A stretch of DNA of 56,154 nucleotides from a virus, in IMG/VR virus record IMGVR_UViG_3300045988_060580; one strand, written 5' to 3'. The position numbers were made by a program, and so were the translations under genes. Of this stretch, positions 1-56,154 are shown one piece after another. Within the stretch, counting starts at the first letter, position 1; each line of letters starts with the position of its first letter. The notes beneath the pieces are model-generated. The model had not been told where the DNA came from, ran no database searches, and was given only the letters and a program-made list of their open reading frames with translations.

Positions 1-39
1 CAGATAACTCCTTATGACCTTAATGAAAGTTATGATAAT
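1..39. repeat. att core / terminal direct repeat, left copy (cagataactccttatgaccttaatgaaagttatgataat)
   Basis: Exact 39/39 match to 56116..56154. Confidence 0.9.
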
Positions 40-6796: not shown

Positions 6797-6866
6797 TAAG
6801 GCACAAAAACAATATACAAATTGTACAAATATAAGGCACATAATTTGTACAATATTTATAAGGCAC
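6797..6866. promoter_or_regulatory. Operator array: TAAGGCACA x3 interleaved with TTGTACAA palindromes x2
   Basis: TAAGGCACA at 6797, 6832 and 6858. TTGTACAA at 6821 and 6845. Confidence 0.55.
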
Positions 6867-6907
6867 AAAATAACACAATGTATATAATAAAGAAGTTAAA
6901 ATATCAA

Positions 6908-6939
6908 TTGACACATAAGGCACAAAATGATATTATAAT
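6908..6939 (+). promoter_or_regulatory. Promoter/operator cassette 1 (TTGACA, TAAGGCACA in the spacer, ATGATATTATAAT)
   Basis: 32/33 identical to 7181..7212. Confidence 0.65.
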
Positions 6940-6971
6940 TACAATAATATTATATGAGGAGATAAAAGTAT

Positions 6972-7166
6972 ATGCAGGAATTAAAGACAAGCGAAAGCCA
7001 ACGAAAAGCCGTATATAAATATGATGATAAGTTTGAGCGTGTTAATTGCAGATTTGCAAAAGGCACAAAGGAGCGCATAGAAAAGCTTGGATACAAGAGC
7101 ACAAACGACTTTATTAAACTTGCAGTAGCGGAAAAGCTGGAGCATGACGAAAAAATCTTAAAATAA
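6972..7166 (+). CDS. Ribbon-helix-helix (CopG/Arc-like) transcriptional regulator
   Basis: The pattern ERVNCRFAKGTKERIEKLG...NDFIKLAVAEKL is typical of RHH proteins. It is flanked by repeated operators. Confidence 0.6.
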   Translation: MQELKTSESQRKAVYKYDDKFERVNCRFAKGTKERIEKLGYKSTNDFIKLAVAEKLEHDEKILK

Positions 7167-7180
7167 GGCACAAAAAACTA

Positions 7181-7219
7181 TTGACATATAAGGCACAAAA
7201 TGATATTATAATTGTACAA
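7181..7219 (+). promoter_or_regulatory. Promoter/operator cassette 2 plus a TTGTACAA palindrome
   Basis: Duplicate of cassette 1. TAAGGCACA at 7164 and 7189, TTGTACAA at 7212. Confidence 0.65.
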
Positions 7220-10041: not shown

Positions 10042-10113
10042 TGCACCATAGCCAAGCGGTAAGGCACAGAGCTTTGATCTCTGTATGCGTCGGTTCGAAT
10101 CCGACTGGTGTAG
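10042..10113 (+). tRNA. tRNA-Gln(UUG): tRNA-Gln (anticodon UUG)
   Basis: Manual cloverleaf: acceptor tgcacca/tggtgta with U1-A72, anticodon arm cagag-cTTTGat-ctctg, T-arm gtcgg-ttcgaat-ccgac. Confidence 0.8.
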
Positions 10114-10326: not shown

Positions 10327-10409
10327 GCCGATATGGGATAAAGGTATTCCAATAGCTTGCTAAGCTATCCAACAGAAATGTTGTTCGTGTTCGATTCACG
10401 ATGTCGGCG
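10327..10409 (+). tRNA. tRNA-Ser(GCU): tRNA-Ser (anticodon GCU), class II
   Basis: Acceptor gccgata/tgtcggc, anticodon arm atagc-ttGCTaa-gctat, variable arm caaca-gaaa-tgttg, T-arm tcgtg-ttcgatt-cacga. Confidence 0.8.
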
Positions 10410-10485
10410 CTTTGAAAGCACTTCTTAGGTCTGCGTGCGTAATGCTGTTTGCGGGCTTATCCTAGGTTAAGAGGTGTGAGTAAGT

Positions 10486-10603: not shown

Positions 10604-10675
10604 CGGATAGTAGTTCAGTTGGGAGTAACGCTTGATTTATTCAAGTAGTCACAGGTTCAAGTCCTGTCTATCCGA
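10604..10675 (+). tRNA. tRNA-Lys-like gene with abnormal anticodon loop (7-nt register gives anticodon UUA; alternative 5-nt loop UUUAU)
   Basis: Acceptor cggatag/ctatccg, D-arm tagttcagttgggag, T-arm acagg-ttcaagt-cctgt, anticodon region cttga-tttat-tcaag. Confidence 0.55.
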
Positions 10676-10798
10676 TTACAACAAACTAGCTTGACGAAGC
10701 GAAAAGCACTTCCGCTGTGCCTGTTTGTTGTTTTTATTGATCAAGCGGAGTGTGTATCACAGGCATACATAAATAATATCAAGCGGAGGTATTCGATT

Positions 10799-11755
10799 AT
10801 GGCAACAATTAGAGTGCATAAAACAAAAAATTACACAGTTATGAGTAATACTCATTTAAGGGATAAGAATTTAAGTTTGAAAGCAAAAGGATTATTGTCC
10901 GTAATGCTTTCATTGCCCGATAATTGGGATTATTCAATAGCTGGGTTAGTTGCAATAAGTAAAGAGAATGAAACAGCTGTTAAATCGGCTTTAAATGAGT
11001 TAAGGGATAATAATTATGTTGTGGTTACTAAAGAAAACCCAACAAAAAGCAATGGTGGAAGAATAAAGTACACCTATGAGGTTTACGAAGAACCATATAA
11101 ACAGAAAATAGAAAAACAAGATACAGAAAATCTAGGGGTTGAACACCAACAGGTAGAAAACCACGGACAATTAAATACTAATGAATTAAGTACTGATGAA
11201 TTAAATATTAATATACAAAATACTAATGAATTAAATACTAAAAGTAATTCTCTTAACAGAGAACAATGCAATTCTTTTTTACCCAAAGATAAAAAAGTGA
11301 AAGAGTTTAAGCCGATAAGCGATTATTCTCAAAGTGATTGGGAAGTTGCCGAAGAAAGAATGATAAGTAGAGCTGGTAAGATAGCTTATGATTGGACTAA
11401 TGATAAAACACTCAAAGAAAATGTAGAAGCATTCTTTAAATACTTTTTAAATAAACACGGAGAATGTACAGGAGAATATCACTACCCATTAACAGATAAG
11501 GTTTTATCAAGAGTAGTAGATAATTTAACAAAAGAAACCGACATAGAGCGTGACGGATATACAGATACCTATTATGCGGCTATAAGTGATATGGACGATA
11601 ATACAGACTACAAGATGTTGGTTGATGAATATTTCAATACAAAGTTTTCAGCACAATGTGATTACAGCTTAGTTCACTTTTCTTCTGAAAAGGTTTTAAT
11701 TAACATTATGAATCACGCTTGTAAGAGCAGTTGGTGTGAAAGTAAGGAATTGTAG
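10799..11755 (+). CDS. Winged-helix replication-initiator/DnaD-like protein with a low-complexity centre
   Basis: RBS ggaggt. The N-terminus (KNYTVMSNTHLRDKNLSLKAKGLLSVMLSLPDNWDYS) is typical of phage/plasmid wHTH initiators. Confidence 0.5.
   Translation: MATIRVHKTKNYTVMSNTHLRDKNLSLKAKGLLSVMLSLPDNWDYSIAGLVAISKENETAVKSALNELRDNNYVVVTKENPTKSNGGRIKYTYEVYEEPYKQKIEKQDTENLGVEHQQVENHGQLNTNELSTDELNINIQNTNELNTKSNSLNREQCNSFLPKDKKVKEFKPISDYSQSDWEVAEERMISRAGKIAYDWTNDKTLKENVEAFFKYFLNKHGECTGEYHYPLTDKVLSRVVDNLTKETDIERDGYTDTYYAAISDMDDNTDYKMLVDEYFNTKFSAQCDYSLVHFSSEKVLINIMNHACKSSWCESKEL
11175..11234 (+). repeat. Three 15-bp iteron-like repeats (RTACTRATGAATTAA) inside the initiator-like gene
   Basis: Copies at 11175, 11190 and 11220. 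Confidence 0.5.
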
Positions 11756-15816: not shown

Positions 15817-16026
15817 ATGAATTTTTATATGAATAAAGATAAATCAATTATGTGTCCAAACTGCCATAAGTTTTTGACTAAGGCAGACAGCAAAGACACA
15901 AGAACACATAAATTAGCGTGCAAGCATTGCCACAAATGGATATGGTATGTGCCTAACGATGATGATAATTTTCAAATTAAAGAAATACCAGACAACAGAA
16001 GTTCAAGCGGTATGACATTTTATTAG
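15817..16026 (+). CDS. Zinc-finger protein (Com-like)
   Basis: CPNC...CKHC pairs. Confidence 0.45.
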   Translation: MNFYMNKDKSIMCPNCHKFLTKADSKDTRTHKLACKHCHKWIWYVPNDDDNFQIKEIPDNRSSSGMTFY

Positions 16027-46355: not shown

Positions 46356-46583
46356 ATGGCTAAGAAGAAATTAACAGGAGTAAGCCCTATAACCAACAGA
46401 ATATATTATGGAACGCAAGACACAGAAAAACATATGTGGATAGGACAGAAGACAGATATTACAGATAGTGCAATAGCTTCTGTATTTGAATGGTTCATGG
46501 CGAATATGGTGGGAAAAGAAGAATATTCTATCACATATCCAGAGACAGATTTTGAGTTAGTCATGAGAAGAAAGGAGCAGTAA
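46356..46583 (+). CDS. Hypothetical protein
   Basis: ORF with RBS aaaggagcagtaATG. Confidence 0.5.
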   Translation: MAKKKLTGVSPITNRIYYGTQDTEKHMWIGQKTDITDSAIASVFEWFMANMVGKEEYSITYPETDFELVMRRKEQ

Positions 46584-47074
46584 TGGAGAAATTAACGATT
46601 GATGCGATAATTGAGCATTGCGACAGAAAAACAAGGATGTACGAAAAGGCTTGTGATATTAAGTATCTCGAAACAACTATGAATAATTCTACAAAGGAGT
46701 ATTGGGAACATAAATAAGTTGCTGAATATTTAAGAAAGTTCAAAGATTATGAGGACTTAGAAGAACAGGGCAGAATGATTATTTTCCCATGTAACAAAGG
46801 AGATAAAATCTATGAATTTTATCGCGAATGTGTAGAATGCAGATTAGAAGCCGGAGAGACACCGGAAGATATTATCAGTATGAGGAGAGTTCGTTATTTT
46901 GGGTATAATGGAGATGAAGCATACATTTACGCGTCACAAGCATTACCGGTTCGACTTTTTAATAACGATGAGCCATTTTGTATTCCGGTAAGTGAGATAG
47001 GCAAAACTGTTTTTCTTTCATACGAGGAAGCCGAAGCAAAACTGAAAGAATTGAGAGATGAAGAAAATGAGTAA
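46583..47074 (+). CDS. Conserved phage protein interrupted by one in-frame TAA (46715..46717)
   Basis: The same frame is open on both sides of the TAA. The 19 codons between the TAA and the next ATG (46775) read VAEYLRKFKDYEDLEEQGR, with no RBS. Confidence 0.5.
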
Positions 47075-49746: not shown

Positions 49747-50590
49747 CTAAAAACCAAAGAAAGGAACAGGTTGTGCGCACATAAAACCGAGGTTTCCTTT
49801 TGGCAGATTTATGAATTTTGACAATTATTCTTGTGATAATCAAATGTCTATATTTGACTTCACAAGAGAACCAATTAGCATTACAAAGCCTATCCGCTTG
49901 ATAGAATTATTCGCCGGCTACGGAAGTCAGGCAATGGCACTAAAGAGAATAGGTGCTAAATTTGAGCATTACAGAGTTGTGGAGTTTGATAAGTATGCCA
50001 TAGCAAGCTATAACGCAGTGCATGGCACAGATTTTCCTACAATGGATATAACTAAGGTTCATGCAGAAGATTTGAATATCTGCGACACAGATGCATTCAC
50101 TTACTTACTTACTTACTCGTTTCCATGCACCGATTTATCAGTTGCCGGAAAACAAGCCGGAATGTCTAAGGGCAGCGGCACAAGAAGCGGTCTGTTGTGG
50201 GAAGTTGAGAGAATACTAACAGAAATTAGAGATAGCAACGGAGAATTACCACAGATTTTGTTCATGGAGAATGTGCCACAAGTGCATAGTCAGGATAATA
50301 TGCCCGACTTTAGAAAGTGGCTAGTTTTCCTTGAAAGCCTTGGTTACACAAATTACTATCAAGACTTGAATGCTAAAAATTATGGTGTAGCACAAAATCG
50401 TGAAAGGTGTTTTATGTTTTCATTCCTGGGTGAGTACAATTACCATTTTCCACAGCCTATACCACTCAAAAAGAAGTTGAAAGACTATCTTGAGGATAAT
50501 GTAGATGAAAAGTATTACATCAACAATGAAAAGGCTGACAAGCTGATAAAACAGCTTATTGACAACGGCACATTGCCACAACACAATCTT

Positions 50591-50637
<47 letters not shown>

Positions 50638-50927
50638 TTGCGTTGACGGAACAATCAATAAGCCGCAGCAAAGAGAAGTTGCAAACTGCATCAAGGCAAG
50701 ATGTGACTGCGGAATATCAAACTTGCGGTCAGACGGAAACTTGGTTGTTAAAGGATATGGGAGAGACGGCAGACAAACAGATTGATGTAGCCGTAACTCT
50801 TAGGGCAAGAGATTATAAAGGCCTTGATAATTATGGAAGCAATGGAGTGATTGAATGGAAAAATTAACAGACGCTATCGGAATAGTGCTTTTTGAAAGTG
50901 AAAAATTCGGTGGCGAAAAGGTACTTA

Positions 50928-50935: not shown

Positions 50936-51054
50936 ATTTGTCCTACCCTAAGAGCCAATAAAACAAGTAGCGGAGTGATTGAAGTAATGGCAGATGTAAA
51001 TGTAATAGGCTCTCTTGAAGCAAAATTCGAGAGTACCAACAGAATTTATGATGT

Positions 51055-51062
51055 GGGGGGGG
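51055..51062 (+). repeat. G8 homopolymer at the frame 2 to frame 0 junction of the methyltransferase
   Basis: G7 or G10 would join NRIYDVGG to CSPTLSTMQGG. Confidence 0.95.
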
Positions 51063-51727
51063 TGCAGTCCAACATTGAGTACAATGCAAGGTGGCAATCA
51101 AGAGCCGAAAATTCTTGAAGAGCAAATTCCATGCAAATTAGATAAAATGCCTAACGGACACTTAGAAAGCTTAGATAATGCGAAAATATGTGACATTAAT
51201 ACACCTACTGCAAGCACAGTGACATCACAATATTATAAAGGCATAGGCAGTCATAAAGACAATATGTGCATAGTTGCTATGCGTGGCAGAAATCCTGATA
51301 ATCCGTCAGATAGAACTGCGGGAAGTCTAACAGAGCAGAGATTAGAGGTGAATATGCAAGGTACAAGTAATTGCTTAACGAGTGTGCAGAAAGATAATTT
51401 ATTGCTTGAAAATAATATCCAAAAAGTCGGTCAAATATCAAGCAACGGTTCCCAATGTGGCACAGTTATTTCTGATAATGGCATATCCGCTAATCTTGTA
51501 GCTGGCACACACGGATATGCAAATAGCCATATTGCTACGCAATATCGTATAAGAAAGCTAACACCGAGAGAGTGTGGACGGCTGATGGGTGTATCTGATG
51601 AAGATATTGACAAAATGGCAGCAATAAACAGTAATACGCAGTTGTATAAGCAATTTGGAAACAGTATTGTGGTAGATGTTATGTGTGCTATGTTTAAGAA
51701 TTTAAACATCAATCAAGGAGATACAGT

Positions 51728-51919
51728 ATGAAAGACGAAACAAAGCAGGAAATACAGATTTTACTTGACCTACTCAAAGGCAGTCTTACAAGAAATGGTG
51801 TAAGTATGGCAACTGACAGAGAGGGCAACTTGATGTTCTTTGATACAACAACTTACATCAAGAGTAAAGGCAAGGAATTTGACGGATTCAGAATTAACAT
51901 TAACGATTTAGTGAAGTAA
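51728..51919 (+). CDS. Hypothetical protein
   Basis: ORF with ATGA overlap. Confidence 0.5.
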   Translation: MKDETKQEIQILLDLLKGSLTRNGVSMATDREGNLMFFDTTTYIKSKGKEFDGFRININDLVK

Positions 51920-56115: not shown

Positions 56116-56154
56116 CAGATAACTCCTTATGACCTTAATGAAAGTTATGATAAT
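56116..56154. repeat. att core / terminal direct repeat, right copy
   Basis: Exact 39/39 match to 1..39. It lies 100 nt downstream of the integrase stop. Confidence 0.9.

What the first reader, a model, noticed from the sequence alone, without database searches (positions are those of the whole stretch)
10604..10675. tRNA-Lys-like gene with a remodelled anticodon loop: ochre-suppressor register (UUA) or a 5-nt loop
The acceptor (cggatag/ctatccg), the D-arm (TAGTTCAGTTGGGAG), the variable loop (tagtc) and the T-arm (acagg-ttcaagt-cctgt) are canonical and closest to tRNA-Lys(UUU) scaffolds as I remember them. The anticodon region reads cttga-TTTAT-tcaag.

Two folds are possible. One is a perfect 5-bp stem with a non-canonical 5-nt loop. 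The other, in the standard 7-nt register (stem gcttg/caagt, loop AUUUAUU), gives anticodon UUA with U33 and an unusual U37.

UUA is the anticodon of the classical lysT-derived ochre suppressors. Alternatively, an altered Lys anticodon loop fits published cases of phage tRNAs that escape or decoy anticodon nucleases acting on tRNA-Lys (PrrC, PARIS AriB). The window also contains one gene with an in-frame TAA (see 46583..47074).
Basis: partly seen in the sequence, partly recalled or inferred. Interest (0 to 1): 0.7.

Follow-up and report, generated by a model that had tools for sequence, protein, structure and literature searches.

The report
Phage tRNA mimic, variable anticodon arm
This gene in a gut phage looks like a stop-codon-reading tRNA, but it belongs to a family of tRNA look-alikes whose anticodon arm is a closed hairpin that differs between related phages, so it probably does not decode anything.

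Summary
Window 10604-10675 (+) is a 72-nt tRNA-shaped gene with canonical acceptor, D and T arms but an anticodon region CTTGA-TTTAT-TCAAG. ARAGORN calls it tRNA-Stop(UUA). Rfam scores it as tRNA only with a deleted loop.

The ochre-suppressor reading is probably an artefact of the fold register.
- A canonical tRNA-Asn(GUU) in sister phages has the identical stem with a normal 7-nt loop, so the homologous fold here is 5 bp plus a 5-nt loop.
- The 7-nt register needs no nucleotide 26, a poorly supported pair, and U37.
- Of 168 non-redundant copies of this tRNA body, none has a canonical anticodon arm. Forms include UUCG-type tetraloops, pentaloops and 8-9-bp helices.
- TAA ends 53 of 98 genes. 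The in-frame TAA at 46715 is a lineage-specific CAA-to-TAA change.

The body is more conserved (95.9%) than neighbouring real tRNAs (78-85%). It was the last gene of its array in all 162 loci tested.

Best reading: a non-decoding phage tRNA mimic. Its role, cis-processing or trans-acting decoy, is unresolved. Weak suppression remains possible (about 0.15). I found no published description.

The parts
10604..10675 (+). 72-nt tRNA-like gene (the finding): canonical acceptor, D and T arms; non-canonical anticodon arm; no encoded CCA
   Evidence: ARAGORN tRNA-Stop(tta). Rfam tRNA 51.6 bits with a loop deletion. Cloverleaf pairs supported.
10631..10645 (+). Anticodon-arm hairpin: 5-bp stem CTTGA/TCAAG (10631-10635 / 10641-10645) closing the pentaloop TTTAT (10636-10640). 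The central base, 10638, is the most polymorphic site in the family (U/C/A).
   Evidence: Identical stem with a normal 7-nt loop CTGTTAA in tRNA-Asn(GUU) of L139/L154. Loop tally TTTAT 94, TTCAT 25, TTAAT 4, TTTGT 1.
10630..10630 (+). Nucleotide 26 (G). ARAGORN instead uses it as a G.U stem pair with T10646.
   Evidence: The 26.44 combination is G.U 110, A.U 9, C.U 4, A.C 1. The evidence for selection to keep it paired is weak.
10042..10113 (+). tRNA-Gln(UUG), first gene of the same tRNA array
   Evidence: ARAGORN and Rfam 62.4 bits
10327..10410 (+). tRNA-Ser(GCU), second gene of the array
   Evidence: ARAGORN and Rfam 52 bits
10679..10746 (+). int-alpA-like structured RNA starting 4 nt after the tRNA-like gene. 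Its outer stem CAACAAAC/GTTTGTTG is followed by a U run. It travels with the 72-, 80- and 81-nt forms.
   Evidence: Rfam RF02996 51.6 bits, E 7.9e-8. Also found in L246 and L250. The inner hairpins differ between loci while the outer stem is kept.
10799..11755 (+). Replication-initiator-like gene downstream of the module, containing 15-nt iterons at 11169-11243
   Evidence: PHROG replication initiation / DnaD-like hits. Iterons are repeat family D3.
46583..47074 (+). Small accessory gene with an in-frame TAA at 46715-46717. Not part of the tRNA-like system in my reading.
   Evidence: Translation. The codon is CAA in L129-L132. L130 and L131 are 99.6-99.8% identical over 474 nt and come from contigs that also carry the tRNA-like gene.

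Best explanation
The gene is one allele of a family of phage tRNA mimics, not a decoder.

Shown here:
- It is the last unit of the phage tRNA array.
- It has a canonical acceptor stem, D arm (with G18G19) and T arm, so it should fold into the tRNA L-shape.
- It has no encoded CCA, and its 3' trailer starts with U.
- Its anticodon arm is a closed hairpin: 5 bp plus the pentaloop UUUAU here, and 5 bp plus a UUCG-type tetraloop or an 8-9-bp helix in sister alleles.
- What is conserved is the tRNA body, not an anticodon.

Inferred from established knowledge of tRNA maturation in Firmicutes: RNase P cuts its 5' end, RNase Z cuts after the discriminator (its known substrates are CCA-less precursors), and CCA is then added.

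Inferred and weakest: its role is in cis, as the terminal processing module of the array. By being excised like a tRNA it would separate the tRNA precursors from what lies downstream and define their RNA ends. Downstream here is the int-alpA-like leader and the replication gene; in other phages it is an RBS 11-31 nt away.

On this view the polymorphic central loop base is simply the structurally free apex of the loop. The same holds for position 2 of the UNCG-type tetraloop in the 70-nt form.
For: Homologous register: tRNA-Asn(GUU) of L139/L154 has the identical stem CTTGA/TCAAG, a near-identical variable loop and an identical T loop, but a 7-nt loop. Rfam and RNAfold also give the short loop.

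One body, many arms: of 168 non-redundant copies, 124 are the 72-nt pentaloop form, 10 are the 70-nt tetraloop form (TTCG, TGCG, TGTG, TGTA), and 34 are 75-83-nt forms with longer arms (mostly 8-9-bp helices; the single 75-nt copy lacks a clean hairpin). None has 5 bp plus 7 nt. One long arm shows a compensatory C-G to U-A change (L274). All forms still score as tRNA in Rfam (41-52 bits).

Body under strong constraint: mean pairwise identity is 95.9%, against 78.1% for Gln and 85.1% for Ser tRNAs in the same rep-anchored sample. There are compensatory changes in the acceptor and T stems.

Position: it is the last tRNA-type gene in 162 of 162 loci with enough flank, across all five length forms tested. 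The 3' trailer starts with T in 167 of 168 copies and CCA is never encoded. No sigma-70-type promoter was found between the array and the rep gene.

The 72-, 80- and 81-nt forms are allelic at the same site, with the same int-alpA-like element and the same downstream genes.
Against: No expression, processing or charging data exist.

RNase P and RNase Z need little specific sequence, so a purely cis role does not explain why the body sequence is more conserved than real tRNAs. That fits a sequence-specific partner in trans better.

The int-alpA-like element looks like a terminator. In that case the tRNA-like gene may simply be the last gene before a terminator rather than punctuation for an mRNA.

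Within the pentaloop form only the two positions that would be anticodon bases 35 and 36 vary (UUA, UCA, UAA, UUG). U/C alternate on at least four shared sequence backgrounds. Anticodon switching would also produce this pattern.

28 of 80 related phages lack the gene, so it is dispensable.

My search patterns required exact matches in the body, which inflates its apparent conservation outside the rep-anchored sample.
Confidence: 0.4

Rival explanations
1. Trans-acting tRNA mimic. The processed L-shaped RNA works away from its gene. It might be a decoy or inhibitor for a host protein that recognises the tRNA body, such as a tRNA-targeting defence nuclease or a tRNA-modifying toxin. It might instead be charged by a synthetase that ignores the anticodon and used outside decoding. 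The anticodon arm would then be either irrelevant or the fast-evolving contact surface in an arms race.
For: The body sequence is more conserved than the real tRNAs beside it (95.9% against 78-85%), and it stays the same in different genomic contexts. That suggests sequence-specific recognition. The anticodon arm is replaced wholesale between alleles yet always remains a stable hairpin. Neighbouring tRNAs in these arrays also show unusual anticodon changes: one scaffold reads AUU, AAC or AAU in different contigs. This fits a conflict centred on tRNA. tRNA-targeting defences countered by phage tRNAs are documented (PMC10264068, PMC11464382, PMC11555353; listed).
Against: No partner has been identified. 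No tRNA-metabolism or defence gene lies nearby in the window. A trans-acting RNA has no obvious reason to be last in its array in every context. Anticodon nucleases read 7-nt loops, which these arms lack. The published evasion cases are point changes within normal loops.
Confidence: 0.25
2. Weak natural nonsense suppressor. On the ribosome the A-U pair closing the pentaloop opens, giving the 7-nt loop A-U-UUA-U-U. The tRNA, charged by a host synthetase, then reads UAA at low efficiency (UGA in the UCA allele). The odd geometry and U37 would keep suppression low enough to be tolerated.
For: ARAGORN reads every pentaloop copy this way, with U33 in place. Only the would-be anticodon positions 35 and 36 vary, and 119 of 124 copies give stop anticodons (UUA 94, UCA 25). 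The window has a CAA-to-TAA change in an otherwise intact gene. One 126-aa gene has TAA at codon 55 in 9 of 37 loci with the downstream frame still open. One contig (L052) has a canonical tRNA-Gln mutated to UUA alongside the UCA allele. A32-U38 combinations occur in functional tRNAs (my own knowledge).
Against: The register conflicts with homology to tRNA-Asn. It leaves no nucleotide 26, or equivalently an arm 1 bp short. It puts a pyrimidine at position 37. Same-body alleles with tetraloops or long helices cannot decode. TAA ends 53 of 98 genes, with no excess of back-up stops. In-frame TAAs are not conserved and also occur in UCA-type and UAA-type contigs. UCA-type contigs show no excess of in-frame TGA. 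Published phage recoding involves TAG and TGA only (bioRxiv 10.1101/2021.08.26.457843).
Confidence: 0.15
3. Decaying pseudogene. A former tRNA (Asn-like) lost two loop nucleotides and is drifting without function.
For: The loop is 2 nt shorter than that of the closest canonical relative. The gene is absent from 28 of 80 relatives. The single 75-nt copy (L281) lacks a clean hairpin.
Against: The body is better conserved than functional tRNAs in the same arrays. Compensatory changes keep the stems paired. All the major arm forms keep stable hairpins. Its position in the array is invariant. It is present in at least 168 non-redundant contigs from many samples.
Confidence: 0.07
4. DNA-level element. 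The tRNA-shaped sequence would be an attachment or recombination site (attP or an attB decoy), with the anticodon-arm inverted repeat acting as the integrase core.
For: Integrases commonly target tRNA genes, often at the anticodon stem-loop (my own knowledge). The phage has a tyrosine integrase. The module sits at a mosaic junction ahead of at least five different downstream genes.
Against: It is a complete tRNA gene, not a 3' fragment. It lies about 10.7 kb from the integrase in a circular 56,115-bp genome. Its 3' half and its anticodon arm occur nowhere else in the genome. No matching host tRNA was found in 185,579 representative genomes.
Confidence: 0.02

Closest known systems
Classical ochre suppressor tRNAs (lysT-, glnV- or tyrT-derived, anticodon UUA), and phage suppressor tRNAs linked to stop-codon recoding (Borges et al., bioRxiv 10.1101/2021.08.26.457843)
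   Same: It is phage-encoded. tRNA finders report a stop anticodon: UUA, or UCA in an allele. The phage is a low-GC gut phage.
   Different: Classical suppressors differ from a canonical parent by one anticodon base and keep a 7-nt loop with A37. This gene has a 5-nt loop on the homologous stem, U at position 37 in the forced register, and no canonical parent with the same body. Phage recoding affects TAG or TGA and many late genes. This genome uses TAA as its main terminator and shows no recoding.
Phage tRNAs that evade anticodon nucleases through anticodon-loop mutations (van den Berg et al. 2023, PMC10264068; T5 tRNA-Lys against PARIS, PMC11464382)
   Same: These are phage tRNA-array genes whose anticodon loops differ from the norm. 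A conflict with tRNA-targeting defences is a plausible backdrop.
   Different: Those tRNAs keep a normal 7-nt loop and a sense anticodon, so they can replace the cleaved host tRNA. Here the loop length or the whole arm is changed and no sense codon can be read. That paper does not mention loop length, pseudo-tRNAs or decoys.
Small stable tRNA-like RNAs in phage tRNA clusters (phage T4 species 1 and 2 RNAs, rnaC/rnaD). Recalled from memory, not checked here.
   Same: They are non-decoding RNAs encoded alongside phage tRNA genes. They have tRNA-like ends, are processed by the tRNA maturation machinery, and their function is unknown.
   Different: They belong to a different phage group and host, with no sequence relationship tested. 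The family here keeps a complete cloverleaf body and varies only the anticodon arm.
tRNA-like processing signals (mitochondrial tRNA punctuation; the MALAT1 mascRNA). From my own knowledge.
   Same: A tRNA-shaped element whose role is to be cut out by RNase P and RNase Z, which defines the ends of neighbouring RNAs. The anticodon arm is not needed for decoding.
   Different: Those examples are eukaryotic or organellar. Cleavage has not been shown here, and the strong sequence conservation of the body goes beyond what a processing signal needs.
Bacterial pseudo-tRNAs with non-translational roles (such as Bacillus cereus tRNA-Other, or cell-wall-dedicated tRNA-Gly in staphylococci). From my own knowledge.
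   Same: They are tRNA-shaped RNAs with features that keep them out of normal decoding.
   Different: Those are chromosomal and keep 7-nt anticodon loops. No charging or downstream pathway is known for this family.

Membership tests
tRNA (Rfam RF00005) | Covariance-model score at or above the gathering score (29 bits) | tested here: met
   51.6 bits for the window gene. 41-52 bits for the 70-, 80-, 81- and 83-nt forms.
Canonical elongator tRNA (decoder) | 7-bp acceptor stem, D arm with G18G19, T arm with a TTC-type loop | tested here: met
   Sequence and fold. Pairs supported across 26 variants.
Canonical elongator tRNA (decoder) | 5-bp anticodon stem plus a 7-nt loop with U33 and a purine at 37, together with nucleotide 26 | tested here: not met
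   The homologous stem closes a 5-nt loop. The 7-nt register removes nucleotide 26 and puts U at position 37. None of 168 family copies is canonical.
Ochre suppressor tRNA | Anticodon UUA presented in a functional 7-nt loop | tested here: inconclusive
   Present only in ARAGORN's register. Rfam and RNAfold disagree. Sequence alone cannot settle it.
Ochre suppressor tRNA | Derived from a canonical Lys, Gln or Tyr tRNA by an anticodon change | tested here: not met
   The scaffold is closest to Asn(GUU) (55/72), against 47/72 for Lys(UUU). No canonical sibling with this body was found in 106 metagenome contigs.
Ochre suppressor tRNA | Aminoacylation and measurable UAA readthrough | not testable with these tools
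   Needs tRNA charging assays and reporter experiments.
Phage stop-codon recoding system | Many genes interrupted by the recoded stop, with low coding density under the standard code | tested here: not met
   There are 98 standard-code genes, 53 of them ending in TAA. The comparative survey found one mid-gene in-frame TAA in the window (46715), and it is not conserved.
Phage stop-codon recoding system | The in-frame stop type matches the suppressor's anticodon across relatives | tested here: not met
   There is no excess of in-frame TGA in UCA-type contigs. In-frame TAA sites also occur in UCA-type and UAA-type contigs.
Nuclease-evading replacement tRNA | Keeps a sense anticodon, so that it can replace a cleaved host tRNA | tested here: not met
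   The loop variants read UUA, UCA, UAA or UUG only in a forced register. The tetraloop and long-helix alleles have no anticodon at all.
Nuclease-evading replacement tRNA | A cognate host tRNA-targeting nuclease exists | not testable with these tools
   The host genome was not identified. Only related prophages in Lachnospiraceae were found.
tRNA-like, non-decoding RNA (tRNA mimic) | tRNA body retained while the anticodon arm is incompatible with decoding | tested here: met
   The same acceptor, D and T arms carry a pentaloop, a UUCG-type tetraloop or 8-9-bp helices.
tRNA-like, non-decoding RNA (tRNA mimic) | Purifying selection on the body | tested here: met
   95.9% mean identity, against 78-85% for neighbouring tRNAs. 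Compensatory pairs.
tRNA-like, non-decoding RNA (tRNA mimic) | Processed by RNase P and RNase Z, with CCA added | not testable with these tools
   The only indirect signs are that CCA is not encoded and the trailer starts with U in 167 of 168 copies.
attP or tRNA-fragment integration site | A partial tRNA 3' segment next to the integrase, identical to a host tRNA | tested here: not met
   It is a full gene, 10.7 kb from the integrase, unique in the genome, with no host match.

The most novel reading that the evidence does not exclude
Temperate Lachnospiraceae phages carry a dedicated trans-acting tRNA mimic. It consists of a strictly conserved L-shaped body with interchangeable anticodon-arm cassettes (tetraloop, pentaloop or long helix). 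It would act as a decoy or inhibitor of host tRNA-targeting immunity, or as an aminoacyl carrier that needs no anticodon. That would make it an RNA-level counter-defence comparable to RNA anti-CRISPRs.
Probability: 0.22. Interest if true: 0.85.

Novelty: new variant of a known kind. Interest (0 to 1): 0.6.

Why it matters
Gene finders report this element as a TAA (or TGA) suppressor tRNA. Surveys of phage suppressor tRNAs and genetic-code change would therefore count at least 168 gut-phage contigs as carrying ochre or opal suppressors, when the call is probably a register artefact.

The element is also of interest in its own right. It is a widespread, strongly conserved tRNA-shaped RNA that has given up a canonical anticodon arm in several different ways. 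It always closes the phage tRNA array, and it sits next to other unexplained phage RNAs: an int-alpA-like element here and ROOL in a relative.

If it acts in cis, it would be a bacterial-virus example of tRNA punctuation. If it acts in trans, it would be a new kind of phage RNA mimic aimed at tRNA-recognising host factors. Either way, the natural arm variants give a ready-made allelic series for experiments.

Tried and rejected
1. Global or local TAA recoding. Rejected: the genome has standard-code gene structure, TAA is the main stop codon and there are no back-up stops.

2. First in-frame-stop survey. It was dominated by off-frame and antisense ORFs, and its 869 events were unusable except for the crude TAA:TGA ratio. 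I redid it with stricter rules.

3. "Alternating stop" CAA-TGA / TAA-CGA upstream of the portal gene. This is an artefact: the TGA is part of the RBS tGAGGTGG before the ATG at 15817. Other "events" were gene boundaries that happen to be in frame with the next gene.

4. Pairing between the loop and the rep leader. The rep leader has ATAAAT, complementary to the loop AUUUAU, but the motif is unchanged in the UCA, UAA, UUG and long-arm alleles.

5. Antisense or DNA-site role for the anticodon arm. There is no significant second copy in the genome.

6. attP remnant. Rejected.

7. Exact copy in representative bacterial genomes, to name the host or a parent tRNA. None was found. The host was inferred only from TerL relatives in Lachnospiraceae prophages.

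8. Cultured-phage representative. None was found in the phage record collection.

9. tRNA-metabolism or defence genes near the array. None was found by Pfam or PHROGs.

10. Literature on the family or on int-alpA in this context. Nothing relevant was found.

11. Promoter and terminator scan around the array. It was uninformative.

Full report
WHAT IS THERE

ARAGORN calls it tRNA-Stop(tta). Its drawing shows how it gets there: it leaves out nucleotide 26, uses G10630 and T10646 as a G+U pair, and opens the A-U pair that closes the loop. That gives a 5-bp stem, a 7-nt loop A-U-UUA-U-U and a 4-nt variable loop. Rfam's tRNA model scores 51.6 bits (gathering score 29) but aligns the loop with a deletion. 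RNAfold prefers the 5-nt loop.

The gene is the third and last of an array: tRNA-Gln(UUG) at 10042-10113, tRNA-Ser(GCU) at 10327-10410, then this gene. A match to the int-alpA RNA family (10679-10746, 51.6 bits) follows 4 nt later.

THE GENOME

The window is a complete circular genome of 56,115 bp, because its first and last 39 nt are identical. It has 36.8% G+C. It is a temperate siphovirus-type genome, with:
- large terminase, portal, major capsid protein, endolysin and integrase;
- a replication-initiator-like gene just after the array, which contains 15-nt iterons;
- MazG and DUF3310 genes upstream of the array, and SSB, RecT, two C5 methylases and a G39P-like loader elsewhere.

There is no close relative among deposited phage genomes. 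Terminase relatives (37-61% identity) are prophages in Lachnospiraceae, including Faecalicatena contorta.

IS IT A SUPPRESSOR? GENOME-SIDE EVIDENCE

TAA terminates 53 of 98 predicted genes. The in-frame extension after TAA has a median of 11 codons, the same as after TAG. The genome therefore shows no recoding and no adaptation to efficient ochre suppression.

However, four relatives with the same N-terminal module have CAA (Gln) at that position. Two of them are 99.6-99.8% identical over 474 nt and come from contigs that carry the same tRNA-like gene. The TAA is therefore a recent, lineage-specific nonsense change or a sequencing error.

I ran a strict comparative survey across about 1.2 Mb of related loci. 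It found only 21 in-frame-stop contexts, and many of those were gene boundaries. The few mid-gene TAA sites also occur in contigs whose allele reads UCA or UAA. UCA-type contigs show no excess of in-frame TGA. One apparent "alternating stop" site turned out to be an RBS. Borges et al. tabulated predicted TAA suppressors in phages but found only TAG and TGA recoding.

IS IT A SUPPRESSOR? RNA-SIDE EVIDENCE

Three independent samples give the family:
- pattern scans of IMG/VR;
- a sample anchored on the downstream rep gene, so chosen without reference to the tRNA;
- a body-only pattern scan of metagenomes.

In the rep-anchored sample, 52 of 80 relatives carry a family member.

Within the 72-nt form the cloverleaf is maintained. 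94.5% of cells pair, against about 35% when the partners are slid. Compensatory changes occur at C1-G72 to U-A and at a T-stem C-G to U-A.

The extra pair that ARAGORN needs is weakly supported. The two bases involved, G10630 and T10646, are nucleotides 26 and 44 in standard tRNA numbering and form pair 27-43 in ARAGORN's drawing. The combination is G.U in 110 copies, A.U in 9, C.U in 4 and A.C in 1.

A canonical tRNA-Asn(GUU) from the same kind of array (L139/L154) has the identical anticodon stem CTTGA/TCAAG, a near-identical variable loop, an identical T loop and a matching D stem, but a normal 7-nt loop CTGTTAA. By homology, then, the window gene has a 5-bp stem closing a loop that is 2 nt short. 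The scaffold is Asn-like (55/72 identical) rather than Lys-like (47/72 to a Lachnospiraceae prophage tRNA-Lys). The best annotated hits among deposited phages are Ile, Pro and Asn.

THE DECISIVE OBSERVATION

The same body carries quite different anticodon arms. By "body" I mean the acceptor stem CGGATAG/CTATCCG, the D arm, the variable loop of the form NRGTC, the T arm and discriminator A. Among 168 non-redundant copies:
- 124 are the 72-nt pentaloop form (loops TTTAT 94, TTCAT 25, TTAAT 4, TTTGT 1).
- 10 are a 70-nt form with stem CTTAG/CTAAG capped by TTCG, TGCG, TGTG or TGTA.
- 34 are forms of 75-83 nt with longer arms. Most are 8-9-bp helices closed by 4-7-nt loops. One of these helices shows a compensatory C-G to U-A change. 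The single 75-nt copy lacks a clean hairpin.
- None has a 5-bp stem with a 7-nt loop.

All forms still score as tRNA in Rfam. The 70-nt form folds as a clean cloverleaf with a tetraloop arm.

The 72-, 80- and 81-nt forms are allelic. They occupy the same site, followed by the same int-alpA-like element and the same downstream genes. An arm capped by a UUCG-type tetraloop, or one 3-4 bp too long, cannot present an anticodon. Whatever keeps this gene in these phages therefore does not require decoding.

WHAT IS SELECTED

- In the unbiased sample the body has 95.9% mean pairwise identity. The co-resident tRNA-Gln has 78.1% and tRNA-Ser 85.1%.
- The gene is the last tRNA-type gene of its array in 162 of 162 loci with enough flank, across all five length forms tested and several unrelated flanking contexts.
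- CCA is never encoded, and the trailer starts with T in 167 of 168 copies. From established knowledge, that is the usual layout of RNase Z substrates in Firmicutes.
- The module precedes at least five different downstream genes. In some contexts the next RBS is only 11-31 nt away.

The variable bases fit structural freedom. The central base of the pentaloop varies, as does position 2 of the UNCG-type tetraloop. These are the positions expected to be exposed, and U/C is the easiest change. This explains the apparent "anticodon switching" without decoding. I cannot exclude selection on that base, because U and C alternate on at least four shared sequence backgrounds.

MECHANISM

My best reading is a non-decoding tRNA mimic that is made and matured like a tRNA. 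I favour a cis role as the terminal processing module of the array (confidence 0.4). The constant last position and the close spacing to what follows support this. The main weakness is that a processing signal should not need such strict sequence conservation. That feature points instead to a trans-acting mimic recognised by a specific protein (0.25). Weak suppression by the pentaloop allele stays possible (0.15). A decaying pseudogene (0.07) and a DNA attachment site (0.02) are unlikely.

COMPARISON WITH WHAT IS KNOWN

It is a tRNA by covariance-model score, but it fails the defining anticodon-arm architecture of a decoder. It fails the defining features of classical ochre suppressors and of phage recoding systems. 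It also differs from the published nuclease-evading phage tRNAs, which keep a normal loop and a sense anticodon. The closest analogues are small stable tRNA-like RNAs in phage tRNA clusters and tRNA-like processing signals. I cite both from my own knowledge. Literature searches found no description of this family.

LIMITS

- There are no expression, processing or charging data.
- The family is about 98% identical within the 72-nt form, so covariation power is modest.
- The pattern scans required exact matches in the body.
- The host is inferred only at family level.
- tRNAscan-SE could not be run.

Noticed in passing
window 10679-10746 (+): A match to the int-alpA RNA family (RF02996, 51.6 bits), which as I recall was described from Proteobacteria, sits 4 nt after the tRNA-like gene in a Lachnospiraceae-type phage. 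Its outer stem CAACAAAC/GTTTGTTG plus a U run looks like a terminator. Its inner hairpins differ between relatives while the outer stem is kept. L250 has two copies.
   Followed up: partly
L305 12435-12983 (-): A full-length ROOL RNA (RF03087, 372.7 bits) lies inside the tRNA array of a related metagenomic contig. That array ends in the 83-nt form of the tRNA-like gene.
   Followed up: no
L052 3662-3735 (-): A canonical tRNA-Gln scaffold with a normal 7-nt loop TTTTAAT (anticodon UUA, A37), which makes it a textbook Gln-derived ochre suppressor. It sits in the same contig as the UCA allele of the tRNA-like gene. This is a single contig.
   Followed up: partly
L139, L154, L057, L206, L150, L210, L180, L213, L216 (arrays upstream of the tRNA-like gene): A second tRNA scaffold (CGGCATGTAGCTCAGTGGTAGAGCAGTC..., with C1-G72 and A73) carries anticodon AUU, AAC or AAU in different contigs. 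All have A34, which is unusual in bacteria. Cys(ACA) also occurs.
   Followed up: no
L245, L258, L272, L251, L275, L286, L269 (about 100 nt upstream of the tRNA-like gene): A conserved sequence rich in hairpins (...GGTTCGAGAACGGTATAA...ACAGCAACAAAAGCAGTTCAA...) directly abuts the 5' end of the 70-nt form and of one 81-nt form. A related sequence precedes the 75-nt and 83-nt forms (L281, L305, L321). No Rfam family matched it.
   Followed up: no
window 1-39 and 56116-56154: An identical 39-nt terminal repeat. The window is a complete circular genome of 56,115 bp.
   Followed up: yes
window 11169-11243 (+): About five tandem 15-nt iterons (AATTAAATACTAATG) inside the replication-initiator-like gene. 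This is probably the origin of replication.
   Followed up: no
window 6858-7213: Repeated operator-like sequences (ATAAGGCACAAAATGATATTATAATT) lie in the region where genes diverge on opposite strands. This is likely the lysogeny switch.
   Followed up: no
window 50591-50637 (+): A GACA microsatellite of about 12 units lies inside the C5 cytosine methylase gene (49811-50785). A second methylase fragment follows at 51015-51731. This could be phase variation or a split gene.
   Followed up: no
window 46715-46717 (+): A CAA-to-TAA nonsense change in a small modular accessory gene. An ATG at 46775 could still express the C-terminal 99 residues.
   Followed up: yes
L141 (tRNA-Gln-like gene): A tRNA-Gln scaffold with a 6-nt anticodon loop (TTTGAT), which ARAGORN calls '?(Gln|Ser)(tg)'. 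This is another loop-length variant in the same kind of array, or a homopolymer error.
   Followed up: no
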